Assembly (NCBI RefSeq): GCF_026571515.1
Contig: NW_026851604.1
Coordinates: forward strand, 1 to 64,000
Reading direction: 5' to 3'
Source: Ruditapes philippinarum
Lineage: Eukaryota
Length of the DNA stretch: 64,000 nt
This document shows positions 17,241 through 62,025 of this stretch, in pieces. Within the stretch, counting starts at the first letter, position 1. The number at the start of each line of letters is the position of its first letter. Made by a program: the position numbers and the translations under genes. The notes below the pieces were generated by a model. The model ran no database searches. It had not been told where the DNA came from and was given only the letters and a program-made list of their open reading frames with translations.

Positions 17241-18186
17241 AATAATATATAAATAACACATGGGTTTGTGGGTAACAGTAAAAATATCATCCCGAGGAAA
17301 ATACTGTTACCCAAGGCGTAGCCGAGGGTAACAGTATTTTTACGAGGGATGATATTTTTACTGTTACTCACAAACCCATGTGTTATTTATTTTATTACCC
17401 CGAACAAAAAAAAATACTGAGATGTTCTGAAATTGTCAACTAAATCTAACTGTAACAAAAATAAACCAAGAGTAACAATAACTAAACTGTCCTTACCTTT
17501 TAAGTTTTAAGTGTACTTTACTGTAGGCCTACTTGAGAAGTTTTCTTTTTCTTTTATTCTTTAAGCAAGTGATGATATCTACAAATCATAAACATACAAT
17601 AAGCTAGGTTTTTGTTTAGAAAACAAAACACTAACCCATTTACACGGTTATGATCTGTGAAATCTGATCCTTCTGTTTCCAGAATATTCTTAGCATGGTT
17701 TTTGACAAAATAACGATGATATCATATGTCTATCCACCATATCTGTAACGTTTCACTGATTAAATTTGTTAAATAATCCTTTTTTGCTACTTAAATTGTC
17801 TGCATGTTCCAGTTTGACACATAATTATTTACATTGCAATTACTTCCGTTGAAAACGGATGTTCACTTTTTGACTATTCAGCAAAAAGATATTTTATACG
17901 CGAAAAGCACACTAGGGTGCAAACAACTAAATTTTATGAGTGTCATAGGGACTCCAGAGGAGAAATTGATGTCCTATCGGGGTTTAAAGTTGAAAATAAG
18001 AATAAATCGAGAAAAAAATGGCGGCCATTTTATTTAGGAAATAGACCACGTGACATCTTAAAAAATACTGTTACCTATGTAACAGTACAAAATTCTTAGT
18101 CACGTGGTACACTTGCATTAACAGTAAAAATAACTCCCAGAGGCCTATGGGAAATTAGCATTACGAAAAAAGTGAGGGGTAATAAT
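17241..18186 (+). mobile_element. ~945-bp non-autonomous element, Crypton-like (solo copy 3)
   Basis: AATAAT direct repeat at both ends (17241-46, 18181-86); left hairpin centred on CCAAGGCGTAGCCGAGG. Confidence 0.85.
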
Positions 18187-29384: not shown

Positions 29385-31105
29385 TCATTGTGTGTTAAAA
29401 ACTTTCAACTGGTCTCCAATGCAACCAACATAGATCTCAGCATAGCGTGAACTGTAGCATATTGATTGAAGACGGTCTTCATCTTCACCTTTATACATTA
29501 TCTTCCCTTGCTTCAAGTCTCCGTTGACTTTATGAATTGTTCCATTACTAAAACAGCAGACAAGTAATGACCCGTCATCTAACATCAACATTCCTTGTGG
29601 TTCTCTAAGATCTGTATGTGTATATGTAGCTATAACGTCCCCTTGTAATGATACACTCACTACACTGTTGTTACCACGGTCATTGATATACAGAAGTTTG
29701 GAATCCTTACCCACAGCAATATACGGGAAAAAGTAATTTGAAAGAACGTTCAGTGGGATGTCATTCAGGATATCACCTTGTGTATTCAGTACAATCACAC
29801 TAGGAGGATACAAACAAGCAACATAAAGACGATCTTGATTAAAGTCTATACCATAGCATGGCCTATCTACTTTAATACTGCGGACACATGATAGCTTGTC
29901 GTCTGTTGTCATGACAACTATTTCTTTGTTTACCGGCATTGTTACAGCAAACTGTTCCTGAGACATTACAGCAATATCACATGGCGCTGAGTCTAGAGCT
30001 TTCTCATCTTTCACAAGTCTGTTCTCTATAGATATCAATTTTACCTTATGGTTGGTGTAATCAGCTAGAACTAATTTATTTGTGTTGAGAACTGCACATC
30101 CTGCAATATCACATTTCTTTTTATCTGATGAAGTTTTAACATTGATATCTCCTTTTACAATTAGACGATCAACAGCTTTTGTCACTTATGTAGATTCATG
30201 ACGAGAATGATCGACAATCTCACCGAAGACCATTTTTTTACAGAACAATGTTTCGAGTTCAGCATTTCGTTGAAATGAGTAGTGCATATTGGTATGCAAT
30301 AATGTTTGTTCTGCATCAATTAATTCATCTGATTTCAGCGTAGATTCTGCCCGTTTCATGTCAATGTAGAGTTGACCGTCTTGATAAGTTGATTTGCTTG
30401 CATGCAGACTTGATTGCAAGCATTTTATTCCGGAAATCATATTTTCGCATTTATCAAGGACATGTTGAATAATTTTGTTGGTGTTGGACTTTATTTCCTC
30501 GGCATTATTTAAAGCATCTTTTTGCATCAGATCCAGGCGGTCGTTTATTTCTTTTCGGAATTCAGTGATGGCCTTGATGATTTCTTTATTGTAATCATTT
30601 ATGTTGCTTCTACTGCTTTTAGCCTTCTTCGAAATTTCTGATGCTTCTTTTAATTTTTCGTCGAGCTTCTTCATGACGTCATCGAACTCATTCCCATCTG
30701 CGACACCTACGCATTTTTCAGGTATGTAATCAACTTTACATGTTCTATGTCCTAAAGTTATGCAATCATTGCATCCGAGTGCATGGTGTGATGGACAATA
30801 AAATTTGATTATTTCTTTTTTGTGAACTTGACACATTTCAGTGCATTCATTGTTTGATTTCCGTGTAGTTTGGAACTTATCAAAATCATTACACTGCAAA
30901 ATTTGATGATTTAGTAAGACTTTTGTTTTCTGTGGACATCGTGGCAATTTTTACAAAGGTATTCTTGACATGTGACACAAAAGCCATGAGCTTCTATACG
31001 TTGACCCGTGGTAAGACATGGCTCACAACAGTGATCGAAGTCTTCCGTTGATCCTGCTGCTACTGATCCTAGCAGGTCTACTTGTTTACGTCCTGAAACG
31101 GCCAT
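29385..31105 (-). pseudogene. Disrupted RING-less B-box1/B-box2/coiled-coil/NHL TRIM-like gene
   Basis: Three track ORFs join into a paralog of 51801-53522. One T is missing in the run at 30926-30929 (4 vs 5), and there is an in-frame TAA at 30186-30188. Confidence 0.85.
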
Positions 31106-31910
31106 TCCTGGAATACAGAAAATAGAAGTTTTTATCACTATCTTCCTTTCTACTTTAAAGGTTATATTATTCAATTTGGCGCATATCGAAATTTTACTTA
31201 CATCTTAATTAACCACAAATGAAAAACAATTTATGTGTTTTGCTTAATCGATCGCTGTGTAGCATTTTAATTTTCCAATGAAAAAGAAATATCTCATTTG
31301 ACTTGTGACCTTAATTTTTGATATTTAAAAAAAACAATATCTGCTTTACACTGCAAACAAATAATTCTATTTCTTATGTATTAATATTGGTAACCAATCG
31401 ATAAAATTTAATTGGACAAAGTTGTTGTGTTAACCGATATTAATCGTATTCATTAAAGTATCAACAATCAATAAATCAATTAAACTCTTTAATGAACACC
31501 GATCATAATTAAATAATAAACGTACACATTAAAAAAATCATGATTCTAGTGACAATAGTATGACTGTGAATCACTAATATAGCCAAATAACAACAATACA
31601 ACATACGCTTTCTTAAGTAAAGGGACGCAATTTCACACTATTTGTACAGCTTTACAGTACAAGGTAGACTCCCTTTATCAAGAAAAAAACTACGTCAAAA
31701 AGTAAGTTATAAGTTTTACATATCGCATGTAACATTACAATAATGTGGGCGGGGCAACGCTCGACTTTTTACTTTTCTAATTCCAATTCAGATGCGTCTC
31801 ACAAATGTAAGCTAATAATATACAATAAAGAGAAAATGGTATGATTTATTTCCTTATTTTTTCTCCGATAGTTTATGTAAAAACGCGAGGACACAAAAAG
31901 ACTTTTTCTT

Positions 31911-32075
31911 ACCTTTTGCAGTTATTTATTGTATCTATATTATTATCCGACCTTTACACGATTAAAATGAATTACATGTAATTGGTTGTTCTTCTTGAAA
32001 CTGACCTACAAGTTTTCGGCATAGATTAATTAAACTTCCTTTCTCCGAAAAAGTTTATAGATAGCATGTTCTAGT
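31911..32075 (-). promoter_or_regulatory. Putative non-coding first exon/core promoter module A of the TRIM-like gene
   Basis: Minus-strand donor AAG|GTAAGA at 31912 could splice to acceptor TTCCAG 2 nt before the ATG. Conserved TTCTCCGAA and TTATAGATAG block; orthologous block at 54298-54450. Confidence 0.5.
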
Positions 32076-33597
32076 TTTTGCGCAAGGGTAGTTATGCATT
32101 TTATAATGTCGCTTATTAAATTTAAAAGTCATCTCCCTTTATAAATGATGTTAATAGTATAGAGAAGTTATGCAAACTGTACTTCATTTGGATGTTACGC
32201 AAATTCTCATCTGGAAATATGTTCAAGTATAAGTAATTATGTTTTTTAATGATATGAATTATGACAATTGATTGATATTATGACTATTTCTGATGAAATT
32301 ATAACACAGCTAAACATTGACAAAAAACATGCCAAACAATGTTTTGCTATGTCAAATTGTATTTATTTACCTTAAACATGCACTATGAGCGTCAAGAAAT
32401 CAGTATGGTTAACAAAGATATATTGACATTAGCATCAAGGGTAATATATTGCCAAATATGAATAAAGTCTTATACCATGACTGTATGATTTCTTGCAACG
32501 CAACTGCCTGACCCCTTGCAAGTTTAATAAATAAATGTGTATGACTTCTTGTTAGTTTCTAGGACTCTTACAATATATAGACTATATTGAGTACAGCATG
32601 AATTTGCTATGGAAACGCAATTTTCAACTTAATCGTTATTTGTTTCAATTAAGTTTAATTTCTATAATTTTATATGATGATTTATCTATCCTTTGTCCAT
32701 TTATCTATACTATATCCTTTGTCCATGATCAAATTTGAAATCAACAAAACCTGAATAATACAAAATGATTTCGCCGGAAGTGATACAACTTCATTTTAGT
32801 CACGTAGTGATCTCGAAAGATTTCATATATATTTATCTTAAAAGTAAGTTTCAGAGAAAATATCTTATGAATTTGCAAGAAAACATACAATATGGATATA
32901 ACACTTGTATCACATTTCGAGCATACATTGTATCTAAACGAATGTCGTGAACTCGCTTCAATTCAGAATAAATAATTAACTGAAAATAAAAATAAACTGC
33001 GTACATCTGCCATTCTTTAGGTGAATAAAAACAAAATTTGAAACCAGTCCGGTATACATTTCGTGTTAATATGTGCCGATGATGAAACTTGATTTTATGA
33101 AAACTGCGCTGGTTGGGATGCGAAACTTGCATAGATAATAAGGAGAATTCCCTTAAGAAAAAATAGCATACATCAACCACAGAAAATTATCATTTTTAAC
33201 GTTCAGCTTGCAACATCCAAATGATAATACAAAGCATTTATAAATCCGCTTACCTTCTGTGTATCTTGTAAATTTGTTCGCATTTTGCCATATTAAGACT
33301 TGTGCAAACAAAGGTTTAGCAAATCATCATAATGGTAGAACTAGTGATAAATTAAAGACAATTAAACAGTCAAACATCGTACGCTTTCCCGATCCTGTGA
33401 TGTATTAAAATGTAATATTGCAGGATATAAATGCTTCATTCATCAAACTGTTTCAATGACAGTCCTAAGCAAAGACCAGTTACATCCCCTTACAAAACAT
33501 TACGTGATTAATTTAATTTCCGCAGTATCTAGCATGTTTAAACACGTATAAATAATACATACAAAATTAAGTGTTTGTTTAAAATATAGATTATCTT

Positions 33598-33800
33598 ACC
33601 TGTTTTCAAGTATAACTATACAGCATGCCAGATAAAAACATTCCAAACTTTTCAAGATTTAAACTTTATTAATTGTGAAACTTTTTTAAATATAAAATCT
33701 ACCTTTTTTAACAATTTAATGAAAAATAGTGACCTTAATGCTGAATGCCGCAGATTAACTTCCTTTCGTGGAAAACGTCTATAAATAGCATGTCCTAAAT
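33598..33800 (-). promoter_or_regulatory. Putative alternative first exon/core promoter module B
   Basis: Donor CAG|GTAAGA at 33599; TTCGTGGAA at 33765; CTATAAATAG at 33779. Confidence 0.45.
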
Positions 33801-34529
33801 TTAATTTTATGTTATCACAGATTTATCTCCCATTATGCTGAGTGATCTTAAGTATAGAAAAGTTGTCATTAGATTAAATTGGTCACCTGTTTAAAGCACA
33901 GACATTTGCGGTGTTGAGCTCCCAACTCCTTAAAAAATCAAATAAAATGTATATTTGTTAATACCGGCGCATATAACTTTTTAAAACTGACATACAATTT
34001 TTGGCCTTTCATTTCTCGAAAACTTATATAAATCCTAGTTTTTTGGCAAGGTAATTTTTTAATTTTTGTCGCTCATTATATTTTAAAGTTATCTCCCTTG
34101 ATAAATAATGATAATTATTAAGTTTGTCAAATCGAGAAGTTATACATCAATTGGTGATCATCCAAGTGTTGCAACCTGAAAAAGGGAATAAGTAATTATA
34201 TTTTCTAATGATGTGAATAATTATTGATGTATTTTATGACTATTCCTGATGGAATTATAGCACAGCGAATAACTGATAGGAAACGTGCTGAGTAAGTATT
34301 GGCATTCATTGACACACAATATTCAAACCTTTAACATGCACTTTATTTAAAATCAAACCAGTATTGTTAACAAATATATATTTGCCAGCTGCTCCACGGG
34401 ACGTATTGTGACAAAAGCATTAAAATTTTGGGCAAAGTGTTGGACCATGACCGTATGATTTCTTGCAACGACACTGTATGACATCGTCCGAGTTAAAAAA
34501 ATAATGTGCATGAATTCTTGCGAGTTTGT

Positions 34530-34739
34530 TTGTTTGTTTCATTTTACGCCTTTTCCCAACAGTATTTCAGTTATATAGGCGGGTAGTTTCCTTACCATCG
34601 TTCCTAGAGAGTAACACCAGTACTAGACTAGCTTCCTCTGCGTTAAACTACCAAAGCGTCTCCCTGGGATCGAACCCACTCCAGAGAGGTAATTGGATTA
34701 GAAGTCATCGACTCTAACCTCTTGACCACGGCGGCGGTT
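34530..34739 (-). mobile_element. tRNA-derived SINE
   Basis: A box TGGTCAAGAGG, B box GGTTCGATCCC, (AAAC)n tail, 12-bp TSD TTGCGAGTTTGT. The paralogous site near 42655 is empty. Confidence 0.85.
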
Positions 34740-35969
34740 TTGCGAGTTTGTAGGACTCTGACAAAGAAATGACACTATAAAGAGTGCAATATGAATTTGA
34801 TATGGAAAGTTTGTACTTATCTTATCTTATCTTAATTCATATCATTTAATCAAATAATGATATATATATCAGAAAATCACATGGTGCATATACTAAAACT
34901 TCATTTGTTATATCATAAAATAAAAACATCGACAGTGCATCAAGGAATGCTAAGAAAATATAATTTCTGAACACTCTTGTTAACATGACTGCATGGCCTC
35001 GTGAGACTTCAGCGAATAAATTGCATTACATCTTGCGCTTGATAGCAACCATTAAGAAACCCCATCGTTGTTTGTTTAAATTAACTCAAATTCCTATATA
35101 TCTTAAAACCTGAAAGTTACCAAATGGCTTCGCTGGGAGTGATACAACTTGTTTTAGACACCACTTGAACTAGTAAGATATCATATATATAGCTAGCAAG
35201 AAAACAAATCAGATGATTTCTTATGAGTTTGCAAGAAAATATACAATATTGATCTTACACGTGTGGCACATTTCCAGAATTTATTCAAGAATATAAATGA
35301 TTTTCTTTTCGGAAAATATAATAGATAAAAAGGTTATATATTACAAAATGAATTGCGTACATCTAGCATGCTTTTCGTGAATAAATTCCAAATCAGAAAC
35401 CGGTCCGACACAAATTTCGTGTTTTGTGCCAATGGTAAAACTTAATTTCAAGAAAACTGCACTAGATTGGTTGTGAAACAGACATATTCAATAAAGAAAA
35501 GGTACAATCATACATCAATAACTAACAAATTTGTGATTGTTTGCAATATTCGAATGAGGACATTTCGTTAATCCGTTTATCCACAGTGTTTCTTGTAAAT
35601 TTATACATATGTTGTCATATTTTAAAATAGCCCAAATAAAGATTCAGCAAAGTATTTTAATGATAGGGCTTGTGATAAATAAAGGCCGATTAAACAGCCA
35701 TACCTCATATGCTCAAAGATTCTGTGAATATTTAATTGTTATATGGCAGGAAGTAAAATGTTTCATGAATCGAACGGTTCAGATTGAATCAAACTGTTCA
35801 GATAACAGTCCTAAAATATATTACCAGTTACATCCCCTGACGTTACGTTACTTGATTCATGAAATATTTTACTCCTTAACTGAGTGAATTGCTTATCGTT
35901 TTAGCATGTTTAAACCCTTTAACGATATACAAAGTAAAGTGTATATTAAAAGTATTGTTTACCTTTCCT

Positions 35970-36533
35970 GTTGTAGGAGATAAAAAAGCCTAATTAGGGG
36001 TTTGTTACTCCTACGTAGGACTTTTAAACTCCTAATAAGGATTTTTTTATCTCCTACGTAGGAGTTATAAAGTCCTACGTAGGAGTTAAAAAGTCCTACG
36101 TAGGAGTTTAAAAGTCCTACGTAGGAGTTATAAACTCCTAATTAGGCTTTTTTATCTCCTACGTAGGAGTTTAAAAGTCCTACGTAGGAGTTATAAAATC
36201 CTACGTAGGACTTATAAAGTCCTACGTTGGAGATATAAAGTCCTACGTAGGAGTTTAAAAGTCCTACGTAGGAGTTATAAATTCCTAATTAGGCTTTTTT
36301 TTATCTCCTACGTAGGAGTTATAAAGTCCTACGTAGGAGATACAAAGTCCTACGTAGGACTTATAAAGGTTTACATAGGAGTTATAAAGTCCTACGTAGG
36401 ACTTACAAAGTCCTACGTAGGAGTTTAAAAGTCCTACGAAGGAGTTACAAACTCCTAATTTGGTTTTTTATCTCCTATGTAGGAGTTTATTTTTATATAG
36501 AACATTATGAATTGGCACCAGGTCGCTTCCGTA
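35970..36533. repeat. Satellite-like array of ~21-bp units built on the palindrome TCCTACGTAGGA, probably the interior of a DNA transposon
   Basis: More than 20 units with a periodic CCTAATTAGGC variant; ends GGCACCAGGTCGCTTCCGTA. Confidence 0.85.
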
Positions 36534-36593
36534 AGTATGACTGTAAATCACTAATATAGCCAAATAACAACAATACAACATACGCTTTCTTAA

Positions 36594-37390
36594 GGTATGA
36601 GCCCCCTAATGGGCACTATAAAGAACTATAAAATTGACAGCTTAGGTCTGTTATATACCTTAAAGGACACCTGTATGCAAAATCTAAAGAAAGTTTACCA
36701 TATGGTTTTCAAGGTATGGTGATTTTTCTTACTGAAAACTTGGCTACTGAAACGGCTCTTTTTCAGAAATGAGAAACTTTCAATAATCTATCATATAATC
36801 AATATGGAAAAATATGTTCCATTTGACCATTGCTAAGAAACAAATAATAGCATTCAACAAGCAAATGACACAAGAAAACTTAGTGTTTCTATTCAAGATA
36901 TTTGAAATATGTATACAAATGGTACCCTACCCCACCAATTTTAAACCCTTGATTAACAATTTTCCTACTTGGAGCGCCTTATTAAAAAAAGCCTTAAAAT
37001 TTACCAAAATGAGGGACTGTTTTCAAAGTTTGCCTTAATTGTTTTATAGTATACTGGTTACTGGTTAATCTTGTCAAATATAAAATACTTTTACCGTCTA
37101 GTTTTTATTTTATTAGACTTTGAAAATATCAGGTATCATATCTGATGATAAATTTGGCATAATTTAGCCATTAAATACCAATAATAATTTTATACTTAAA
37201 ATGAAACACTTTTTTCTTACCAAGAGTGATCCAAGAGACACAAAAAATGTTGAAAGAAAAAATAGAAAGAAAAAAAGTTGCCTCTTCTGGGGCTTGAACC
37301 CGCGCCCCTCAGCTTCAATGCAGTTGACAGTAGTTCTAGCCTATTTGAATACTCTTCAAAGTGGAGGTAATGCATTAGGTGGGTCATACC
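36594..37390. mobile_element. Kolobok-like non-autonomous DNA transposon (~800 bp)
   Basis: TTAA|GGTATGAGCCCCCTAATG ... CATTAGGTGGGTCATACC|TTAA. The empty TTAA site is visible in the paralog at ~31613. Confidence 0.9.
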
Positions 37391-38411
37391 TTAAGTAAAG
37401 GGACGCAATTTCACATTTGTAAAGCTTTCCAGTACAAGGCAGACATTCTTTATCAAGAAAAAAACTACGTCAAAAAGTAAGTTATAAGTTTAACATATCG
37501 CATAGTAACATTACAATAATGCTGTATTTCAAAAACAAGAGCAACTGCCGGGCGGGAGCAACGCTCGACTTTTTACTTTTCTAATTCCAATTCAGTTATG
37601 CGTCACACAAATGTAAGCTAGTAATATACAATAAAGAGAAAATGGTTTGATTTTTTTCCTTATCTTTTCACCGATAGTTTATGTAAAAACGCGAGGAAAC
37701 AAATATTAAGAAAGAGAAAGACTTTTTCTTACCTTTTGCAGTTATTTATTGTATCTATATTATTATCCGACCTTCACACGATTAAATGAATGAATTGAAT
37801 GTTCTTTTTGAAACTGACCTACAAGTTTTCGGCATAGATAAATTAAACTTCCTTTCTCCGGAAACGTTTATAAATAGCATGTTCTAGTTTTTGCGCAAGG
37901 GTAGTTATACATTTTATAATGTCGCTTATTAAATTTAAAAATCATCTCCCTTTATAAATGATGATAATACTATAGACAAGTTATGCAAACTGTATTTCAT
38001 TTTGACGTTACGCAAATTCTCATCTGGAAGTATGTTCAAGTGTAAGTATTTATGTTTTCTAATGATATGGATTATAACAATTGATTTATATTATGACTAT
38101 TTCTGATGAAATTATAACACAGCTAAACATTGACAGAAATCATACCAAACAATGTTTTGCTATGTCAAATTGTATTTATTTACCTTAAACATGCACTATG
38201 AGCGTCAAGAAATCAGTATGGTTAACAAAGATATATTGCCATTAGCATCAAGGGACACATATTGCCAAATCTGACTGCATGAATTTGTGTGACTCTAGCA
38301 ATTTAATATGCATTTCATCTTGCAAGCTTCTTCTGTGATTTCAACGCAATTTTCAACTCAATCGTTATTTGTTTCAATTAAGTTTAATTTCTATATAGTT
38401 TTATATGATGA

Positions 38412-38567
38412 TTTATCTATACGATATCCTTTGTCCATTTATCTATACTATATCCTTTGTCCATTTATCTATACTATATCCTTTGTCCATTTATCTATAC
38501 TATATCCTTTGTCCATTTATCTATACTACATCCTTTGTCCATTTATCTATACTATATCCTTTGTCCA
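38412..38567. repeat. 26-bp tandem repeat TCCATTTATCTATACTATATCCTTTG
   Basis: About 6 units here, about 2 at 32680-32727 and 1 at ~55265. Confidence 0.95.
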
Positions 38568-39559
38568 TGATCAACTTTGAAATTATCAAAACCTGAATAA
38601 TACAAAATGATTTCGCCGGCAGTGATATAACTTCGTTTTAGTCATTAAGTGATATCGAAAGATTCCATATATATTTATCCAAAAAGTTAGATTAAGATTA
38701 AAAAATAACTTATGAGTTTGCAAGAAAACATAAATATTGATATAACACTTGTATCGCATTTCGAGCATACTTTGTATCTAAACGAATGTCGTGAATCGCT
38801 TCAGTTCAGAAAATATAATTACATTTTGTACATGTAATTAACTGCAAGTATAACTGAATTGCATGCTATTTCATGAATAGAAACAAAATTTGAAATCAGT
38901 CCGATATACATGTCGTGTTATGTGCCGATAATAAAACTTGATTATAAAAAAACTGCACAGGTTTGGTTGTGAAACATGCATAGAGAATAAGAATTCTCTT
39001 AAGAAAAAGAACATACATCAACCACGAAAATTGGTCATTTTAAACGTTCAGCTTGCACCTTCTAAATGAGATACAAAGCATTTAAAAGTCCGTTAACCTT
39101 CTGTGTATCTAGTAAATTTGTTCACATGTTGCCATATCAAGAATAGTGCAAATAAAGATTTAGGAAATTATAATAATGAAAGGGCTAGTGATAGATACAG
39201 TTCAATTAAACAGCCAATCATCATAATACGCTCTCCAGATTCTATGAAATATTGTAATGAAATATTGCAGGATATAGTTCTTCAAACTGTTTCTATAACA
39301 GTCCCAAAATATGATGACGATACGTTACGTGTTTAATTAAATTTTCAACTCCTAAATTAGCTAAACTGCTTATCGATTAGGCATATTTAAACATGCTAAT
39401 AAAACATTTGTATATAAAATTAAGTGTATGTTTAAAGTATTGATTACCTTACCTGTGTTTTTACAGCTACATCTAACTATACAGCAATCCAGATTAAACC
39501 ATTTAACTTAAGTAAAGTAATTATAAAGTCTACCTTTCCAAAATTTTATGAAATATGAA

Positions 39560-40686
39560 AAACAAGATCAACAAGGAAAGGCGGCGTTCAATGAAAGCAA
39601 CCCCCATATGACCCAGCAACAAGAACCAATGGCAAGGAGCCCAGGCGGACCCCAAACATAAAAAGGACAGGGCAACGACACGTTAAACATTAAATGATAA
39701 ATAATTTGTAACTGATTAGGAATTCAAAGAAAAAAATAATAGGCCCACAAAGGGGAAGGGGACAGGAGACCGGGGGAAGGGGGGGGGGGTAATCAAAGAA
39801 ATAAAAACTAGAGGCAATGGGGAAGATACTTACCGTAGACGAGAAAACAACAAGGGACACAGGCAAAAGTGTCACCAAAACAGTATGAAACAACATAGAC
39901 ATACATCTGAGGAACACAGTGGGGCGCCGCCTTGGAACGGTCAGCAGCATAATAATGACTGCTGGGGAGTTTAAACCGGTTAATGGTGCACCAAACCTCG
40001 CTCTTAGCCCCACCATGTTCCTATAAACGAGACAGTGTAAATAAAATGAATCCCCGCCAAGTGAAATTCTAACAGTTGTCATGGTTACAAAAGGTTAAAT
40101 AAATAAAACACTAAAATGATCATGTAGAAACATATAAAAGTAAACCCAATGACCATAACAAAAGTACTCAATGTCCTAACGGAAGACAGAGCAACAAGAA
40201 AATCACCTACAAGGGCCCGACGAAGCAAGGCAGAAGACGAACATTAAGACAATTCAGACCCAAAGGGCTTTACGAACTATCCATCATAGAGTCTCCCACT
40301 TGGTCCGTCAGATGCAATCAAAAGAGGAAAGCGTAGTGTCCAACTGTAAAAGGGTTGAACACTAAACATGCAGTATGTCTTAAAATAGTAGGGTCATAAC
40401 CTCTTTTAATAAAACGTTTAATAATTTTAGTAAAAACAGCAGAAAAATTACCATGACCCAAAATCTTACGAAGTTTGTAAACCACATCGCCATAAAAACC
40501 AGGCTGGCTAATCCCTTGTCGCAGAAGAGTTTTTAAATCACTATTGAATTTAGAAATTAAATCAAAGTTACGATTGTAAAATTTAGTAAAATATTTCCGT
40601 AATTTATGATAGCGGTAGCCCTGTTTTAGAAGCTTGCTGGTAATAAAAATATTCCGCTCGTTGAAATCCTTTACGTTGTTACAAGC
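39560..40686 (-). mobile_element. 3' fragment of a Penelope-like retroelement, Naiad-type (RT thumb/C-terminus plus 3' UTR)
   Basis: Frame 40686->40270 reads ACNNVKDFNERNIFITSKLLKQGYRYHKLRKYFTKFYNR...FYGDVVYKLRKI...TACLVFNPFTVGHYAFLF(TGA)LHLTDQVGDSMMDSS*. No C-terminal GIY-YIG follows. Absent from the paralogous module near 33700. Confidence 0.8.
40233..40296 (-). promoter_or_regulatory. SECIS-like stem-loop (type 2), one core mismatch
   Basis: GGAGAC UCU AUGA U GGAUAGUUCG U AAA GCCC UUU GGGU C UGAAUUGUCU U AA U GUUC GUCUUC. Helix I, 10-bp helix II, apical AAA and ministem all form; the 3' core is UAAU instead of UGAU. Confidence 0.75.
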
Positions 40687-41146
40687 TGTCAGTTTCTGTC
40701 AGCTGTCGAGAAGTTTCTGTCGCCCTTTCACAAAATCTGATTTCAGTTTTACTTAAGAAAAAGAAAGAAAAAAAAAGTTTTACTTAAAATCTGATTTTAC
40801 TAGATACACAGAAACTTCTCGAACAGTGACCTTCAAGCTGAATACAGCAGATTAACTTCCTTTCGTTGAAAACGTCTATAAATAGCATATCCTAAATTAA
40901 AGTTAATTTTGTCGTCTGTATCATACTTGTCTCGATATGTACAATGAATAGCGAACTGGAGAATTTCGCAATGCAAACATTTTCAAATGAAATCACCTTT
41001 TCCGTCAATAAATCGCGCTCTTCGGGGGTTTTTATTTATCATTTTGTAGCACACAGTGGGTTATTATGGTATGTTATTCCGAAAGCTGTAAATAGAATGA
41101 TGAGTTGATGACCTAAATATTCCGAAAATCTATTTATAGAGGGATG

Positions 41147-41257
41147 TACTCCTATCGGTAATTCCCGGTCTCTCCTGGTCTATTTTGACCGGGATTTACT
41201 AGTGACCGGCGAATAGTACCACACGTTTATTGTCCGGTCTCTCCCGGTTTTGGAGTA
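41147..41257. mobile_element. Small MITE-like element with TACTCC...GGAGTA ends
   Basis: Short TIR with TA flanks and internal CCGGTCTCTCC repeats. Confidence 0.45.
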
Positions 41258-44200
41258 GATGTTTGAGATCGTTACAGAACAGAACAAATACTTTACAGAT
41301 AAATAAGCTTTTTTTCAAAATGAATGTTTGTCACTTAGTTTGGTTAAAATAATTAATAAACACAGATCAACTCTCAAATTTATTGATTATTATTATACAT
41401 AAACATACAATTCGAATAAAAACAAAAAAAAACCAACACAAATCGCATGTTTTATTTTATCTATATGAGATCAAAACAATAAATATGTACAATAATTGAG
41501 AAAAAATGTACATTTTTATGGCATTTATATGACACTATCAACTTTGAAACATTTTATTTAATTTGTTATTCGTGTTTAGTAAAGATGCCGAGGAATTATT
41601 CAAAGTTACAAATCAGATTTTATGAATTATTCAATTGATTGATAATTTAAAAAATGATAAAGAAAAATACAAATGTACATGTATATGGTTTAAGAATAAA
41701 CAATATTATATATTGAAAGATTAACCATAGTTTACTGACTTTTTCCAGTTAAGTTTTGACTTAATTATAATCGTCGGTCAATATGACAATTGAATTCTTA
41801 AAATAGTAGTAAACGTAAAAACTCAGTATTAAAATAGCGCATAAAACACAAAAAAGAAAAGAAAACAATGTTCATAAAATCTGTATTTTTTTTATTTAAA
41901 TAAATATTACAAATATTGTATAATAAATAATCATGCTCAACATGATCAACATGGAAATAATACAAGTGTCATATTGTTACTAAGTGTGAACAGATACCTT
42001 AAGAGGGAGTCTTCGCTAATAGCGATAACATAATAAGGGACAATTACACAAGTGTGGTGTTGATCATGCGTTACACATATGGATTATAAATGATTGTATA
42101 CATGTATATCCGTTGCTATTAATAACCACGATCATAAAGAAATAACAAGTAATATTCTAATTTCTAGCATGCCAATCAAAGTTATAAGTAATGAACAATG
42201 TCTTTCGTCCGTTCATTCATAAGTGATATACAATTCTGGTAAAAACCAATGAACCATTGAACAGTTTATAAGAATATCTTGTCATCAAATATCTACTAGT
42301 TCATCTGCACCTGCTGCATTTCTTGCTTGGACGCCCTTTGATGCTTTGCATCAATGCTTTTCTTGTGTATCAATTTGTTATAAACCGGATGTTGCGAGCT
42401 GACCGAGAGTAGGCTAAGCTATTATGTTTCCTAATGATATGAATAACAATTGATTTATATACTATTTCTGATGGAGTTTTAGCGCAAGGAAAAGCAACTC
42501 GGTATTCTTCACAGATATATTTGCCAGTAATGCCGACGGACGCATATTGACAAAATCATTAAAATTCTGAGCAAAGTGTAAAACTATGACTGTATGATTT
42601 CTTGTAACGACACTGTATGACCTCTTACGAGCTTAAAACTAAATGTGTATGATTTCTTGCGAGTTTCTAGGACTCTGAAAAAGAAAATGTGACTTTAAAG
42701 ATTACAATATGAATTTAATATGGAAAGTTTCGAGTTACAAAACTAATCTTAATTTGTATCATTGAATCAAATAATAAATTATATCAGAAAATCACATGGT
42801 GCATATACTAAAAATTCATTGGTTACATCTTACAATGTGTGAAATAAAAAAAATCGACAGTGCATCAAGGAAAGCTTAGAGAATCTGAAATTCTGAACAA
42901 TCTTAGTAAGATGACTGCATGGCCTCTTTCGACTACAGCAAATAAATTGCATTACATCTTGCGTTCGATAGCAACCATTAAGAAACACCATCGTTATTTG
43001 TTTAAATTAACTCAAATGTTTATTATGATATATCTAATTGTCCATTATTAAAACCTGAAAAATACCAAATGGTTTCGCCGGAAGTGATACAGCTTATTTT
43101 AGACACCACTTGGACTCGTAAGATATCATATATAGAGCTAGCAAGAAAGAATCAGATGATTTCTTATGAGTTTGCAAGAAAATATACAATATTGATTTTA
43201 CACATGTGGCACATTTCCAGAATTTATTCAAGAAAATAAATGATTTTCTTGTCGGAAAATATAATAGAAAAAAAGGTTATATATTATAAAATGAATTGAT
43301 GCTTTCGTGAATAAAAAACCAAATCTGAAACCAGCCCGACACATATTTCGTGTTTTGTGCCAATGATAAAACTTAATTTCAAGAAAACTGCACTAGATGG
43401 GTTGTGAAACAGACATATTCAATAAAGAAAAAGTACATACATCAATAACTAACAAATTTGTGATTGTTTGCAACATCCGAATGAGGACATCTCGTTAATC
43501 CGTTTATCTACTGTGTATATTGTAAATTCATTCATATGCTGTCATATTAAGAATAGCGCAAATAAAGATTCAGCAAAGTATTTTAATGATAGGGCCTGTG
43601 ATAATTAAAGGCCGATTAAACAGCCATACCTCATATGCTCAAAGAATATTCTGTGAATATTTAATTGTTATATGGCAGGATGTAAAATGTTTCATGAATC
43701 AAACTGTTCAGATTGAATCAAACTGTTCAGATAACAGTCCCAAAATACATTACCAGTTGCATCCCCTGACGTTACGTTACTTGATTTATGAAATGTTTTA
43801 CTCCTAAATTGAGTAAATGGGTTATCGTTTTAGCATGTTTAAACCCGTTAACGATACACAAAGTAAAGTGTATATTAAAAAAAAGCTGTTCAGTGTACAT
43901 TATGCTTTTGTCGATTTATAACAGTTTATCTATTGACTGATTTGTACAATTTGTACATTTCAAAAGCTGTATAAAATTGATATTAATTGAAGGCACATAA
44001 TACCTCAGAAACAAATGTGAGTTCAGTAATATTCAAATAATGGCTAAGACCATGTAACAAGCTTATCATCTGCAGAAAGAATGTGCTTTTTTGTTGTTGT
44101 TTTTTTGCCTTAAATGTAATTAAAGTAGTATAAAGATTTCCATACCTAAATTCTAAATCACTAAAGCTATATTAATTGCCAAACCGCAACAGAAGCACAA

Positions 44201-44764
44201 GGTGGCTCATATAAAAGAACAATGAGCAACTGTTTGAAATTATACACGGAAAACAAAAATAAAAATATTTTGGGAACTTAAAAAAGCATTTTGACATGAA
44301 GGTCCTTGAATGTAGTTGGTATATTGATATACAAAAAAAATCAAATATATCACAAAGATATGAAAGGTAATAATAAGAATATCATATTAAAAGGCCAGTT
44401 TAAAGATAAGTTAAAGATAAGTTATATTCAGTAATTAATGGCCATATAATAAATGTTTTTTGTTGTTCTTGGTTCTGCTTTTCTATTATATCAAAACAAA
44501 AAGTTCGATTCAGTCATAAACTTAATTACCGGCAACAGCACACTGCCATTTTCGTATACCGATTCTGAAACGAACAATTCACCGTGGCTGCGATGGGCCC
44601 ACCGCTTCTGTGCTAGCTATGATAATTTTGCAATTAAATTTAAACAATTTTATCAAATATATGACAAAGTACAATAAGTTAAACCCGTTCAAGTGAACTG
44701 ATCCATAATGAAATGTCTGTAATACCATAAATAATCATTTCGATAGTATCAAGTATTATAAGCC

Positions 44765-51800: not shown

Positions 51801-53522
51801 TCATTGTGTGTTCAAAACTTTCAACTGGGCTCCAATGCTACCAACATAGATCTCAGCATAGCGTGAACTGTGGCATATTGATTGAAGAAGATCTCCATCT
51901 TCACCTTTATACATTATCTTGCCATGCTTCAAGTCTCCTTTGACTTTATGAATTGTTCCATCATTATAACAGCAGACAAGTAATGACCCATCATCTAACA
52001 TCAACATTCCTTTTGGTCTTGTAAGATATGTATGTTTATATGTAGCTGTAAGTTCCCCCTGTAATGATACACTCAAGACACTTTTTTTACCACGGTCACT
52101 GATGTACAGAAGTTTGGAATCCTTTCTCACAGCAATATACGGGATAAAGTAATTTGAAAGAAAGTTCAGAGGGATGTCATTCAGGATATCACCTTGTGTG
52201 TTCAGTACAATAACACTAGGAGGATACACACAAGCAACATAAAGACGGCCATGATTAAAGTCTATACCATAGCATTTCTTACCAACTTTAATACTGCGGA
52301 TACATGATAGCTTATCGTCTGTTTTCATGACAACTATTTCTTTCTTTACCGGCATTGTTATTGCAAACTGATCCTGAGACATTACAGCAATATCAAATGG
52401 GTTTGAGTCTAGAGTTTTCTCTTCTTGTACAAGCCTGTTCTCTATAGATATCAATTTTATCTTATTGTTAAGGTAATCAGCTAGAACTAGTTTATTTGTG
52501 TTGAGAACTGCGCATCCTGAAATATCACAATTTGCCTTTTCTGATGAAGTTTTAACATTAATATTTTCTTTCCAAATCAGATGATCAACAGTTTTTGTCA
52601 CCTTTGAAGGTTCATGACGAGAATTATCGACAACCTCACCAAATACCATTTTCGCACGCAACAATGTTTCCAGTTCAGAATTTCGTTGAAATGAGTAGTG
52701 AATATTGGTATGCAATAATGTTTGTTCTGCGTCAAATAATTCATCTGATTTCAGCGTAGATTCAGCCTTTTTCATGCCAATGTAGAGTTGACTGTCTTGA
52801 TGAGTTGATCTGCTTGCATGTAGACTTGATTGCAAGCATTTTATACCGGATATCATATTTTCACATGTATCAAGGACGTGTTGAATAATTTTGTTGGTGT
52901 TGGACTTTATTTCCTCGGCATTATTTAAAGCATCTTTTTGCATCAGATCTATGCGGTCGTTTATTTCTTTTCGGAATTCAGAGATGGCCTTGATGATTTC
53001 TTTATTGTTATCAATTATGTTGCTTCTACTGCGTGTAGCCTTCTTCGAAATTTCTGATGCTTCTTTTAATTTTTCGCCGAGCTTCTTCATGACGTCATCG
53101 AACTCCTTCCAATCTGCGACACCTTCGCATTTTTCAGGTATGTAATCAACTTTACATGTTCTATGGCCTAAAGTTATGCAATCATTGCATCCGAGTGCAT
53201 GGTGTGATGGGCAATAAAATTTGATTATTTCTTTTTTGTGAACTTGACACATTTCAGTGCATTCATTGTTTGATTTTCTTGTAGTTTGAATCTTATCAAA
53301 ATCATTACTCTGCAAAATTTGATGATTTCGTAAGACTTTTGTTTTTCTGTGGACATCGTGGCAAGTTTTACAAAGGTATTCTTGACAAGTGGCACAAAAC
53401 CCGTGAGCTTCTATACGTTGACCTGTGGTAAGACATGGCTCACAACAGTGATCGAAGTCTTCCGTTGATCCTGCTGCTACTGATCCTAGCAGGTCTATTT
53501 GTTTACATCCTGAAACGGCCAT
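51801..53522 (-). CDS. RING-less TRIM-like protein, 573 aa: B-box1, B-box2, coiled coil, NHL-like beta-propeller (single coding exon)
   Basis: CEPC..FCATCQEYLCKTCHDVH..H (B-box1), CQVH..FYCPSH..GCNDC...HRTC (B-box2), heptad region, and repeated blades (PFDIAV, CYGIDF, PYIAV, PKGMLM). Acceptor TTCCAG lies 2 nt before MAVSG. Confidence 0.93.
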   Translation of the reverse strand: MAVSGCKQIDLLGSVAAGSTEDFDHCCEPCLTTGQRIEAHGFCATCQEYLCKTCHDVHRKTKVLRNHQILQSNDFDKIQTTRKSNNECTEMCQVHKKEIIKFYCPSHHALGCNDCITLGHRTCKVDYIPEKCEGVADWKEFDDVMKKLGEKLKEASEISKKATRSRSNIIDNNKEIIKAISEFRKEINDRIDLMQKDALNNAEEIKSNTNKIIQHVLDTCENMISGIKCLQSSLHASRSTHQDSQLYIGMKKAESTLKSDELFDAEQTLLHTNIHYSFQRNSELETLLRAKMVFGEVVDNSRHEPSKVTKTVDHLIWKENINVKTSSEKANCDISGCAVLNTNKLVLADYLNNKIKLISIENRLVQEEKTLDSNPFDIAVMSQDQFAITMPVKKEIVVMKTDDKLSCIRSIKVGKKCYGIDFNHGRLYVACVYPPSVIVLNTQGDILNDIPLNFLSNYFIPYIAVRKDSKLLYISDRGKKSVLSVSLQGELTATYKHTYLTRPKGMLMLDDGSLLVCCYNDGTIHKVKGDLKHGKIMYKGEDGDLLQSICHSSRYAEIYVGSIGAQLKVLNTQ

Positions 53523-54297
53523 TCCTGGAATACTGAAAATAGAAGTTTTTATCACTATCTTCCTTTCTACTTAAAAGGTTATATTATTCAATTTGGCGCA
53601 TATCGAAATTTTATTTACATCTTAATAAACCACAAATGAAAAACAATTTATGTGTATTGCTTAATCGATCGCTGTGTAGCATTTTAATTTTCCAATGAAA
53701 AAGAAATATCTCATTTGACTTGTGACCTTAATTTTTGATATTAAAAAAACATTATCTGCTTTACGCTGCAAACAGATAATTCTATTTCTTATGCATATAT
53801 ATTAAAATTTAATTGGACAAATTTGTTGTGTTAACCGATATTAATCGTATTCATTAAAGTATCAACAATCAATAAATCAATTAAACTCTTTAATGAACAT
53901 CGATAATAATTCAGTAATAAACGTACACATTAAAAGAATCATGATTCTAGTGACAATAGTATGACTGTGAATACTAGTATCTAATATAGCCAAATAACAA
54001 CAATACAACATACGCTTTCTTAAAGGGACGCAGTTTCACACTATTTATAAAGCTTTCCAGTACAAGGTAGACTCCCTTTATCAAGAAAAAAAACTACGTC
54101 AAAAAGTAAGTTATAAGTTTTACATATCGCATAGTAACATTATAATTATTAATCCAATTCAGTTATGCGTCTCACAAATGTAAGCTAATAATATACAATA
54201 AAGAAAAAATGGTATGATTTATTTCCTTATTTTTTCACCGATAGTTTATGTAAAAACGCGAGGAAACAAATATTAAGAAAGAGAAAGACCTTTTCTT

Positions 54298-54455
54298 ACC
54301 TTTTGCAGTTATTTATTGTATCTATATTATTATCCGACCTTTACACGATTAAAATGAATTAATTGGATGTTCTTTTTGAAACTGACCTACAAGTTTTCGG
54401 CATAGATTAATTATACTTCCTTTCTCCGAAAACGTTTATAAATAGCATGTTCTAG
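54298..54455 (-). promoter_or_regulatory. Putative non-coding first exon/core promoter of the intact TRIM-like gene
   Basis: Donor AAG|GTAAGA at 54299; TTCTCCGAA at 54422; TTATAAATAG at 54436. Confidence 0.5.
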
Positions 54456-56113
54456 TTTTTGCACAAGGGTAGTTATACTTTTTATTATGTCGCTTATTAA
54501 TTTAAAAGTCATCTCCCTTTATAAATGATGATAATAGTATAGAGAGGTTATGCAAACTGTATTTCATTTGGATGTTACACAAATTCTCATCTGGAAATAT
54601 GCTCAAGTGTAAGTAAATTTGTTTTTTAATGATATGAATTATAACAATTGATTTATATTATGACTATTTCTGATGAAATTATAACACAGCGAATCACTGA
54701 TAGGAAACATGCTAAACAATGTTTTGATCTGTCAAATTGTATTTATTGACCTTAAACATGAACTTTGAGCGTCAAGAAATCAGTATGGTAAACAAAGATA
54801 TATTTTCATTAGCATCGAGGGTAACATATTGCCAAATCATTATAATTCAGAGTAAAGTCTTAGATCATGACTGTAAAATTTCTTGCAACGCCACTGCCTG
54901 GCGTCTTGCCGTCTTGCAATAATTTATAAATAAATGTGTATGACTTCTTGTTAGTTTCTAGAACTCTTACAATATAAAGACTATATTGAGTACAGCATGA
55001 ATTTGACAAATATGCTCAACAGATATTACTATATCCAAATAAAATATTGAAATCACATGGTGCAAATTCATTGGTAATATATTGTAATGTGTGAAAGAAA
55101 TCAGGGAAGCACAGAACAGCTAAACTTTTAACATGACTGCATGATTTCTTGCAAATTTAGCATATAAATGCGAATTCTATCTTGCAAGCTTCTTCCGCAA
55201 TTATTTCAAAACTCAATCGCTATTTGTTTCAATAAAGTTTAATTTCTTTATAGTTATATATGATAATTTATCTAGACGATATCGTTTGTTCATATTCACA
55301 TTTGAAATTATCAAAACCTCAATTATACAAATGATTTCATCGGAAGTGATACTGCTCCGTTTTAGTCACTAAGTGATCTCGAAAGATTTCATATATATTT
55401 ATCTAAAAAGTAAGATTCAGGGGAAATAGCTTGCAAGAAAACATACAATATTGATATTACACTTGTAGCACATTTACAGCATACATTGTATCTTAACGAA
55501 TGTCGTGAACTCAGTTCAGAAAATATAATTAACTGCAAGTAAAATGAATTACCTATTAAGTCAAAATTTAGAAAACAGCAACTCCTTGCCTATGAAAGTT
55601 TTGTTTTCCAAACGTGCATTATGCTATGAAAGTTTTGTGAATTCAAATGGTAAATTCTTGCGTTGATTTTATTATTCCTCAACGGGTTTCAGATAATTTT
55701 CTAATTTCTTTGTGTCCACTTAAAATTTATAAGATGTAGTTTTAAATAAAAACATTTTATTCATAGGTAAGTATTTTTAAATTGGAGCCGTGAATCAATT
55801 TAACAATTTCCTATGCTGATATGGTCCAAATTGAAAAGAAAAGCTTTTTTTAGATTGTAGTAAGATGTATTTATTTTTCAGTTTATAATTATAAATATAC
55901 TTGATGATTTATTTTAAAGACGATAATCTTATTCCTTTCGTGGAAAACGTCTATAAATATGCATGTCCTAAATTCAAGTTTATTTTGTCGCCTGTATCGT
56001 TCATTCAAGATTTATCTACCATTATTCTGTAAGTATAGGTAAGTTATAAGATAAAATTGTTCAAGAACAGCGCATCTGTTTAAAGCACAGACAATTGCTC
56101 CTTAAAATACAAA

Positions 56114-56229
56114 TTGTTTGTTTGTTTGTTTTGGGTTTTACGTCACATCGACACAGTATAGGTCATATCGCGACGTTCCAGCTTTACTGGTGAAGGAAAA
56201 CCTCAGGTGCCCTTCCGTGCATTATTTCA
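56114..56229 (-). mobile_element. SINE 3' fragment
   Basis: (AAAC)n tail preceded by GACCTATACTGTGTCGATGTGACGTAAAACC; absent from the paralog near 33935. Confidence 0.6.
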
Positions 56230-58699
56230 AATAATTATTAAATCCAAATAAACTGTGTATTTGTCAATACCGGCGCATATATCTATTCAAAACTGACCCA
56301 CATTTGTTCGGCCCAGATAACATTCACTCCATTCCTCGTAAACATTTATACATAGCATGTCCTAGTTTTTGGCAAGGGAAGTTATATATTTTATTTCAAT
56401 CATCATATTTCAAATTTATTGCCCTTTATAAATAATGATAATAATTAAGTATGTAAAATCGAGAAGTTTTGTATCAATTTTTTATCAACGAGCTGAACAA
56501 CGAGAGTAAGTAATGTTTCTAATGATGTAAATAACAATTTATTTATATATTATTAATGACGGAGTAATAGCGCAGGGTAAACCTGCTGAATAAATATAGG
56601 CTTTGTCATATTGTATTCATTGACAAACAAAACATTCAAACCTTAAACATGCACTTTCAGTGTCAAGCAAATCAGTATGTTAAACAAAACATATATTGCC
56701 AGTAACATCGAAGAACACATATTGACAAATAATTAACAAAATTTGACTTCAAATATGAAGTATGTTAAACAAACATATATTGCCAGTAACATCGAGGGAC
56801 ACATATTGGCAAATAATTATTGTGGGTAAAACGGCGGTGATACATAATGACTGTATGATTTTATGCAACGACATTGTATGTCCTGTTGCGAGTTTAATAT
56901 TAAAATGTGTGTGACTTTTTTCGAGTATCGAGGACTCTGACAATGAATATGAGACTATGAAAGTACAATAATAATAATAATAATAATATGAAATGGAAGG
57001 TTTATACTTCAAATATGAAACCTAAGCTCAAAATATAGCATGAAATTAAAGAAAGATTTATATTGAAGATCACATGGTGCAAATACTAAAAATCATGGTT
57101 ACATTTTATTATTGGTGAAATAAATAGAAATTCGATAGTGCAAGGGTAAAACAGAGCATCTAAGATATTTGATAACATTTATTTAGTAACATAATCGTTT
57201 TTTGTTTTAATAAACTTTAATGTCTATTATCAGTTATCTTTATGTCCATAATCACAATTAAATAATTAAAACCTGAATAATACCAAATGATTTCGCCGGA
57301 AGTGACACAGCTTCGTTTTAATCACTAAGTGATCTCGCAAGATATCATACAGGACTCACTAGAAAGATTCAGATGATGTCTTATGAGCATGCAAAATATG
57401 TACAGTCTTGATGTTACACGTTTGCCACATTTCGAGGATATATTTACAAAATTTAAATGATCTTGTTTCGGAAAATATAAGTAATATCAAGGTTATATAT
57501 TACAAAATGAAATTATTGCACCTACCATGCTTCTCGTGAAAAGAAACACAATTTGTCGTCTGTCCGACATACATTTCGTGTTATGTGCCTTTGATAAACT
57601 TGAGTTTAAGAAACCTGCGTTGGTGGGACGTTAAACAGACATTTTAAATAAGGGGAAATCCCATAAGAAAAAGAACATAAATCAAATACTAACAAATCGT
57701 CATTCGTAACATAAAATTGGCAACTTTTAGTTTGCAACATTCAAATGAGATACATCCGTTTACCTTCTGTGAATCTTGTTAAAACAATCACATGTTGCCA
57801 TATTAAGAATAGTGCAAATAAAGATAAGCAAAGGCTAGTTAAAGGCCAGTTTTACAGCTTTTTCTCATTCACTCCAAGATTCAGTGAAATATTTAAATAA
57901 AATATTGCAGGATATAAATGCTTCATAAATCAAATTGTTATTCGATGACAGTCCTAAGATATGATTAGTTACATCTCTTGTGACCTTCAAATGTAATGCC
58001 GTAGATTAGAGAACGTCTTTATAAAAAATATCCTAGATTTCAGTTAATTTTGTCGCTCGTATCATTTGAAATTTATCTCCCATTAATCTGAATTATTGAC
58101 AACTAAGTAAAAGTAAGTTGCCATTGACAAGAGCTGCCAAACGACTCAATATAATTGTTATGTTGTTGTACCTATTTTATTTACTGACCTATTTGTACAT
58201 TTCATTATCTGTTAATATTATATTTATAAATGGAATCTTTAATTTGATACATGAAACAAAATCAAATAACACAAATATATGAAATATTATTTTAAAGTTA
58301 TATTGAATGGACATTATTAAGATTGCGTTGTATGTGTATATTTATCGAGCTACAGTTATCTATGTCCACATACGGGTTATATAATTACATTTCTATTGCT
58401 GCTTTTTTCCGTCCTTGAAATCATTAAAGGATTATAATTATATTATAAAATTATAACACGACGAAATCTACAGAGTATGGTGTCTGATTTGTGCCATTCG
58501 TGTTTTCGCCACGGGGCCCCGCCAACCAAAAAGTCGAGAATTAACAAGTTAAAATGGCTGGGCGCATAGAGAAATGTAGCTGATTTATTCAACAAGTCCG
58601 TTGAAAAATAAGTTTTGAAAACTAATGCTGATGAGAAGTGAAAGATTTCAGTGACATTAAGTATAATGGTCATTTGAATTAACTTTAACCGCTGATTTA

Positions 58700-60800: not shown

Positions 60801-60809
60801 CCGAACACT

Positions 60810-61992: not shown

Positions 61993-62025
<33 letters not shown>

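What the first reader, a model, noticed from the sequence alone, without database searches (positions are those of the whole stretch)
31555..43880. Tandem array of duplicated promoter/non-coding first-exon modules upstream of one coding exon
Seen: the ~12 kb upstream of the TRIM-like gene is built from ~1.7-2.3-kb paralogous units in the order A-B-A'-B'. Each begins with a minus-strand donor (GT at 31912, 33599, 37732, 39452; weaker at 35962), with a conserved box upstream: ~140-180 nt in the uninterrupted units, displaced by the retroelement in B'. The coding exon has an acceptor 2 nt before its ATG and was not included in the second duplication. The same unit types recur at 54300-58100. Inference: several alternative promoters splice to a single CDS, diversifying regulation instead of protein, an untranslated analogue of variable-first-exon loci.
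Basis: partly seen in the sequence, partly recalled or inferred. Interest (0 to 1): 0.7.

Follow-up and report, generated by a model that had tools for sequence, protein, structure and literature searches.

The report
Clam genes with stacked start exons
A clam gene family keeps rows of duplicated non-coding starting exons in front of a single protein-coding exon; several exon types are spliced onto family coding exons and likely act as alternative promoters, but half of the row flagged here is likely the leftover front end of a deleted neighbouring gene, and the gene it faces is broken in this assembly.

Summary
The row of paralogous units is real: donors at 31912, 33599, 37732 and 39452, with a shared box 144-188 nt upstream, face one coding exon of a RING-less B-box/NHL gene. 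Units occur almost only at this gene family, not genome-wide. Transcript data join A-type, B-type and three further exon ends to family acceptors. In a paralog, a distal exon splices past a proximal module. Use of several donors by one copy is likely but not shown, start sites are unresolved, and A' and B' were not shown in use. A/B is an old family-wide layout. A'B' shares an intron-1 transposon with a paralog that gene 1 lacks, and the junction cuts both that transposon and a third module, so A'B' is likely an orphan left by deletion of a sister coding exon. Gene 1 has a frameshift and a stop here. This is a variant of known multi-promoter genes. The scan noted coding first-exon rows and similar TRIM-like arrays elsewhere in this genome, but nothing on this sequence.

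The parts
29385..31107 (-). Gene 1 single coding exon (B-box, predicted coiled coil, NHL propeller; no RING), acceptor 2 nt before ATG; 1-nt deletion at 30925 and in-frame TAA at 30188-30186 in this assembly
   Evidence: 91.6% identical to gene 2
31108..31912 (-). Intron 1 of gene 1; empty site for the transposon found at 35973-36533
31913..33598 (-). Module A: upstream boxes, shared box at 32063, non-coding exon ending at donor 31912
   Evidence: A-type joint 31106-31912 in X1 and X2
33600..35961 (-). Module B: shared box at 33787, exon ending at donor 33599, decayed A-like box near 34034, repeat insertion near 34524-34720
   Evidence: B-type joint 31106-33599 in X1
35962..35974 (-). Stub of module C: last ~12 nt of the exon and its donor; box deleted
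   Evidence: intact at G000:C91:110662, C91:81436, C9465:4450
35973..36533 (.). High-copy inverted-repeat element with an internal 21-nt tandem repeat, left end cut off; marks the inferred deletion junction
36534..37732 (-). 5' part of intron 1 of the inferred deleted paralog, with a further insertion at about 36594-37390
37733..39451 (-). Module A': shared box 37876, donor 37732, intact-looking; use not shown
39453..43880 (-). Module B': donor 39452, exon split by a high-copy retroelement-like insertion (about 39560-40821), box at 40884, second insertion (about 40914-42360); likely dead
43884..44700 (-). Upstream flank of a C module whose box, exon and donor are deleted
   Evidence: 93% to G000:C91:110978-111780
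51801..53524 (-). Gene 2 coding exon, intact 573 aa; only copy of 31 listed with a second AG 8 nt upstream of the acceptor
54299..57975 (-). Gene 2 upstream: whole A module (box 54444, donor 54299), box without exon at 55959, decayed box 56361

Best explanation
This is the front end of one copy in a clam family of single-coding-exon B-box/NHL genes whose members carry up to four paralogous non-coding exon modules; several module types are spliced to family acceptors and likely serve as alternative first exons with their own promoters, while the A'B' half is likely an orphan from a deleted sister gene. Shown: the modules, their donors, their confinement to the family, and splicing of five exon ends to family acceptors. 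Inferred: an old tandem duplication (about 30% divergence, older than the roughly 12% coding divergence of the subfamily) made a C-B-A row; whole-gene duplication copied it; deletions, insertions and recombination then removed different modules in different copies, so a distal module can stand in when a proximal one is lost. Inferred for this window: one deletion ran from inside a transposon in intron 1 of an upstream paralog to the C exon of gene 1. It removed that paralog's coding exon and left A', B' facing gene 1's acceptor with no family acceptor between. All variants would give the same protein, since the ATG is in the common exon. Untested: start sites, same-copy use of two donors, use of A', and any tissue or stimulus specificity.
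For: Joints (6 of 13 listed start at the acceptor): 31106-31912 CT..AC in X1 (depth 16, side 22) and X2 (depth 15, side 31); 31106-33599 CT..AC in X1 (depth 6, side 25); 31116-33610 in X2 (depth 2, side 53), whose exon end matches only G000:C91:92298; 31109-33713 in X4 (depth 3.75), whose end matches only C91:78813; 31115-31913 in X2; 31106-33756 in X4 (depth 96). The loose end of 10 X24 reads at the acceptor matches C9406:17352-17324 at 29 of 29, a distal exon that lies beyond a proximal module with a GT donor at C9406:12347. No joint into a module from upstream was listed. Three of the 4 genomic copies with the B exon end have a GT-bearing A donor between them and the coding exon. Identical proteins carry 2-3 RefSeq accessions at 5 of 10 loci with two or more donor-bearing modules and at 0 of 10 with one or none (Fisher p 0.03). 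All 62 box hits lie on the family coding strand. Orphan origin: C10733:88421-88576 matches 36440-36594 at 96% across the transposon-intron junction, genes 1 and 2 have the empty site, and the window's copy lacks about 54 nt of its left end and joins the C exon at a 2-nt overlap.
Against: No junction can be assigned to gene 1 or to any single copy; reads were laid at 82% likeness. The B joint rests on one contig with side 25, under the tool's 31-letter bar. X1, X2 and X4 are RNA only by guess. X24 raw reads show no A or B joint, and zero depth over most unit bodies. A' and B' were outside the second lay, and the first lay showed 15 of 308 joints, none from the acceptor. Contigs run through the TATA-like box (X2 to 32065; X4 for 202 letters beyond it, colinear with C9406), so the box may not be the core promoter. 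The box is not clearly more conserved than its flanks (0.83-0.90 against 0.69-0.97). The RefSeq tally was classed by eye after seeing the counts, falls to p 0.13 if one borderline locus moves, includes three loci with incomplete upstream DNA, and extra accessions may reflect other UTR differences. Gene 1 is broken here. Gene conversion of gene 1's intron could mimic the orphan signal.
Confidence: 0.68

Rival explanations
1. One live promoter per copy. The row is duplication debris: each coding copy uses one module, different copies use different ones, and the rest are decaying.
For: Many modules have lost donor, exon or box. The exon ends seen in RNA point to loci where the proximal module is damaged (C91:92298, C91:78813). 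No clear extra conservation of the box. 5 of 10 multi-module loci have one RefSeq accession.
Against: The C9406 distal exon is used past an intact-looking proximal donor. The B end is spliced although three of its four genomic copies sit above an intact A donor. P0003 has three accessions and three donor-bearing modules.
Confidence: 0.22
2. One reading: A-B was duplicated in place without the coding exon to add promoters to gene 1.
For: The B and B' upstream boxes are sisters (100/99), and A' groups with A, gene 2's A and the C10733 module.
Against: A' carries the intron-1 transposon shared with C10733:87257 and absent from gene 1. The middle segment is only 78% identical and not sister to gene 1's. 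The flank above B' is 93% like another paralog.
Confidence: 0.08
3. The unit is a dispersed transposon with chance donor-like sites.
For: One short A-type match (58 nt, C15726) and 6 short matches to an inner part of B lie on contigs without a listed family gene. The genome search skips very common words.
Against: 28 of 28 B-exon matches, 24 of 25 A matches and 41 of 47 B-body matches are on contigs with family coding exons. DNA-like runs show depth of about 1-4 per strand on unit bodies against hundreds to thousands on the insertions. Donors are spliced.
Confidence: 0.02

Closest known systems
Mouse guanylate-binding protein clusters, mGbp3 and mGbp4 (PMC2387175; passages read)
   Same: Tandem host-defence gene family, translation starts in exon 2, some members have several alternative non-coding 5' exons.
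   Different: The passages read do not describe the alternative exons as paralogous promoter units; mGBPs have many coding exons. Here the modules are 1.7-2.4 kb duplicates, turned over among copies, before one coding exon.
Multi-promoter genes with untranslated first exons: dog ASIP (PMC8484016; passages read), CYP19A1 and NR3C1 (search listings), BDNF (recalled)
   Same: Several non-coding first exons splice to a common acceptor and give one protein.
   Different: Those are single genes with mapped start sites and shown tissue- or time-specific use. Here neither is shown, and the promoters are recognisable duplicates within a multigene array.
Variable-first-exon clusters: protocadherins, UGT1A (Zhang, Haws and Wu 2004, seen only as a reference in PMC2387175, paper not held; content recalled)
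   Same: Tandem paralogous first exons, each with a donor, facing a shared downstream acceptor.
   Different: Their variable exons encode protein; here they do not, and the constant part is itself repeated 30 or more times.
Start-site turnover between duplicate genes (PMC2687787; passages read)
   Same: Sister copies come to use different starts; genes at 53524 and C91:90099 kept different modules.
   Different: That is a genome-wide human statistic; here turnover draws on a pre-existing row of duplicate modules.

Membership tests
Multi-promoter gene with alternative untranslated first exons | Two or more non-coding 5' exons with splice donors upstream of the coding exon | tested here: met
Multi-promoter gene with alternative untranslated first exons | Different exons spliced to the acceptor of the coding exon | tested here: met
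   at family level; B joint weak (one contig, side 25)
Multi-promoter gene with alternative untranslated first exons | The same gene copy uses more than one exon | tested here: inconclusive
   indirect only:
Multi-promoter gene with alternative untranslated first exons | Each exon has its own transcription start | tested here: inconclusive
   no joint into a module listed, but contigs cross the box and cannot show starts
Multi-promoter gene with alternative untranslated first exons | Differential use by tissue, stage or stimulus | not testable with these tools
   run names and tissues are coded; both lays used
Protocadherin/UGT1A-type variable-first-exon cluster | Tandem paralogous first exons | tested here: met
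Protocadherin/UGT1A-type variable-first-exon cluster | Variable exons encode protein | tested here: not met
   the conserved ATG lies in the common exon in 30 of 31 copies listed (one acceptor region is low-complexity junk); no module ORF of 120 aa; short upstream ATGs exist
Dispersed transposon | Copies spread through the genome away from one gene family | tested here: not met
TRIM-NHL proteins | RING finger | tested here: not met
   no RING hit in gene 2 at E 0.01
TRIM-NHL proteins | B-box and NHL repeats | tested here: met
   zf-B_box E 1.4e-4 (22.4 bits, under the 24.1 cut-off), NHL 20.2 bits at cut-off 20; relatives carry both

The most novel reading that the evidence does not exclude
A shared promoter bank: in the tandem array, any upstream non-coding exon can splice to any downstream single coding exon, so promoters and protein variants are paired combinatorially. 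Five copies share a deletion of all modules yet keep the acceptor; four have intact frames with dN/dS 0.42-0.62, like module-bearing copies (0.52-0.73). One X2 contig joins an exon end found only at C91:92298 to an acceptor variant found only in gene 2, 38.8 kb and two coding exons downstream. Allelic variation, recombination or an unrecognised promoter explain these more simply.
Probability: 0.15. Interest if true: 0.78.

Novelty: new variant of a known kind. Interest (0 to 1): 0.45.

Why it matters
It gives a clear invertebrate case of alternative first exons arising by tandem duplication of whole promoter units, then being lost, swapped and inherited by neighbours through deletion in a fast-evolving, probably immune-related gene family (immune role is inference). 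That makes promoter birth and death testable with long reads in a farmed clam. If promoters are shared across coding copies, the array would be a two-sided combinatorial locus, which I did not find described in searches.

Tried and rejected
Run search: no RNA holder listed on record; X1-X17 are RNA by guess. First lay was swamped by repeats. X21 and X22 are labelled RNA but cover introns like exons and have GATC loose ends, so I treated them as DNA (likely Hi-C) and took no expression evidence from them. X23 barely covers the gene and was left out of the second lay, which used 1 of 4 raw runs and 3 of 17 small-share contig sets. The metagenome scan gave one distant locus at 26%, unused. A fuzzy motif scan timed out. 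The donor scores use approximate generic frequencies from memory and picked wrong sites in some modules; donors were rechecked by homology. The conservation profile did not single out the box. Pfam found nothing in the 126-aa frame of the B' insertion; 'retroelement-like' is recalled resemblance. An AG just before the box suggested an acceptor, but no joint lands there and contigs cross it colinearly. Zhang, Haws and Wu 2004 was not held. No paper on this family or layout in clams turned up (listings only). No supplements were read.
Full report
Setting. The window is G000:C91:1-64000 of a 1.41-Gb animal assembly. It holds two minus-strand copies of a single-coding-exon gene. Gene 2 (51801-53524) encodes 573 aa with B-box and NHL hits and no RING. 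Its closest named relatives are Ruditapes philippinarum proteins on contigs of the same lengths as G000 contigs, then Mercenaria proteins. Gene 1 (29385-31107) is 91.6% identical but has a 1-nt deletion at 30925 and an in-frame stop at 30188-30186. The deletion lies in an A run and could be an assembly error. I fetched 59 stretches from 11 contigs and found 31 near-full coding copies, 22 of them in one subfamily.

Observation. Each module is upstream boxes, a shared box with a TATA-like and an ETS-like word (motif labels recalled), 100-190 nt of exon, and a GT donor. A profile of the box gave 62 hits in the fetched DNA, all on the family coding strand (the profile was built from these loci, so this is a map, not an independent test). 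Paralogs show rows such as four modules before C9465:11175 and three before C12955:25259 and C9842:79798. Module classes form well-supported clades across loci, so the A/B split (about 30% divergence) predates the subfamily's expansion (about 12%).

Not a transposon. Genome searches put 28 of 28 B-exon matches, 24 of 25 A matches and 41 of 47 B-body matches on contigs that carry family coding exons (counts are lower bounds and common words are skipped). In two DNA-like runs unit bodies have depth near 1-4 per strand, the insertions hundreds to thousands.

Splicing. Laying one raw RNA run and three probable-RNA contig sets on 30400-34500 at 82% likeness gave 13 joints, 6 from the acceptor. The A-type donor is joined in X1 and X2 with CT..AC ends. 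The B-type donor is joined in X1 (one contig, depth 6, 25 letters on the short side, under the 31-letter bar). An X2 contig (depth 2, side 53) uses a B-variant end found only at C91:92298, and an X4 contig uses an inner donor found only at C91:78813; at both loci the proximal A module is deleted or has a damaged donor. Ten X24 reads leave the acceptor into sequence matching C9406:17352-17324 at 29 of 29, a distal exon above a proximal module with a GT donor; X4's depth-96 joint likely belongs to the same module, since its loose end matches C9406:19084-19055 at 30 of 30. So five exon ends are used in the family, and at least one bypasses a nearer module. None of this can be pinned to gene 1. 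X24 shows no A or B joint. A' and B' were outside this lay, and the first lay showed none of their joints among 15 of 308 rows, with zero X24 depth over most of them.

Same-copy use. Indirect support comes from RefSeq: identical proteins have three accessions at C9842:79798 and two at four other loci, all with two or more donor-bearing modules (5 of 10), and one accession at all 10 loci with one or none. I dropped P0019 (contig not fetched) and P0031 (Mercenaria, four accessions shown) and added two cluster members. Fisher p is 0.03, or 0.13 if one borderline locus moves; classes were set by eye after seeing the counts, and I could not read the transcript models.

Start sites are unresolved. 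No joint enters a module from upstream, which fits first exons. But contigs run through the box (X2 to 32065; X4 202 letters beyond), and the box is not clearly more conserved than its flanks. It may be the core promoter with some upstream read-through, or part of the exon.

Origin of A'B'. The element at 35973-36533 is a high-copy inverted-repeat transposon (809 first-look candidates). Paralog C10733:87257 has it at the same intron-1 site, matching the window at 96% across the junction, while genes 1 and 2 have the empty site. In the window the element lacks about 54 nt of its left end and is fused at a 2-nt overlap to the last bases of gene 1's C exon. One deletion explains both cuts: it removed a sister gene's coding exon and gene 1's C box. 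A promoter-only duplication of gene 1's block would have left the element in gene 1's intron too. The block is also a mosaic: B and B' upstream boxes are sisters, the middle segment is 78% identical and not sister, and the flank above B' is 93% like another paralog. Gene conversion is not excluded. B' is split by two high-copy insertions and is likely dead; A' looks intact and would splice to 31107 if transcribed.

Mechanism, committed. A row of duplicated promoter and first-exon modules feeds one coding exon and gives one protein (splicing shown for the family; own promoters and same-copy use inferred). Copies lose different modules, and deletions can hand a neighbour's modules to a gene (inferred). 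Confidence 0.68; the main rival, one live module per copy, 0.22.

Comparison. It works like multi-promoter genes with untranslated first exons (ASIP, PMC8484016, passages; mGbp3 and mGbp4, PMC2387175, passages; CYP19A1 and NR3C1, listings; BDNF, recalled). Membership is met for exons and splicing, inconclusive for starts and same-copy use. It is not a protocadherin-type cluster, since the variable exons do not code. Start turnover between duplicates is documented in humans (PMC2687787, passages). Searches (listings) found no account of paralogous promoter rows in this family; the library lacks most subscription journals.

Bolder reading. Five copies share a deletion of all modules and keep the acceptor; four have intact frames under constraint like other copies. 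One contig joins the C91:92298 exon end to an acceptor 8 nt upstream that only gene 2 has among 31 listed copies. Both fit promoters shared across coding copies, but alleles, recombination or an unseen promoter are simpler. Probability 0.15.

Verdict. Real feature, partly right reading, new variant of a known kind, interest 0.45.

Noticed in passing
G000 C13631:5425, C10733:77143, C9465:22372, C12955:43336, C9406:34284: Five copies share a deletion of all promoter modules but keep the acceptor; four have intact frames with dN/dS 0.42-0.62. How they are transcribed is unexplained.
   Followed up: partly
window 53525-53540: Gene 2 has a second AG 8 nt upstream of its acceptor; X2 contigs use this site with both an A-type and a B-type exon.
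   Followed up: partly
window 53524-57975 and L003 (G000:C91:90099-93024): Sister copies lost different modules: gene 2 lacks the B exon, the 90099 copy lacks the A box, exon and donor.
   Followed up: partly
L045 (G000:C9406:17323-19038): The most strongly supported first exon is split by a 1.5-kb insertion in this assembly; a likely insertion polymorphism in an active exon.
   Followed up: partly
L008-L009 and L040 (C9465:21999-22371, C12955:43337-43710): The acceptor end of intron 1 is itself duplicated in tandem (about 370 nt), giving two acceptor-like sites before one coding exon.
   Followed up: no
window 60311-60611: A decayed 300-nt fragment of the coding exon (67% identity) upstream of gene 2.
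   Followed up: no
window 60800-64000: Low-complexity poly-A/T/G/C sequence that looks like poor-quality assembly.
   Followed up: no
window 12018-12977: A 319-aa open frame with no Pfam hit, probably an exon of an unrelated gene.
   Followed up: no
window 6512-8379 and 17241-18186: Three copies of a 0.95-kb element with terminal inverted repeats, two in tandem.
   Followed up: no
runs X21, X22: Labelled RNA-Seq but behave like Hi-C DNA (even intron cover, GATC junctions).
   Followed up: partly
protein P0031: A Mercenaria relative has at least seven RefSeq accessions over two near-identical proteins, hinting at many 5' variants there too.
   Followed up: no
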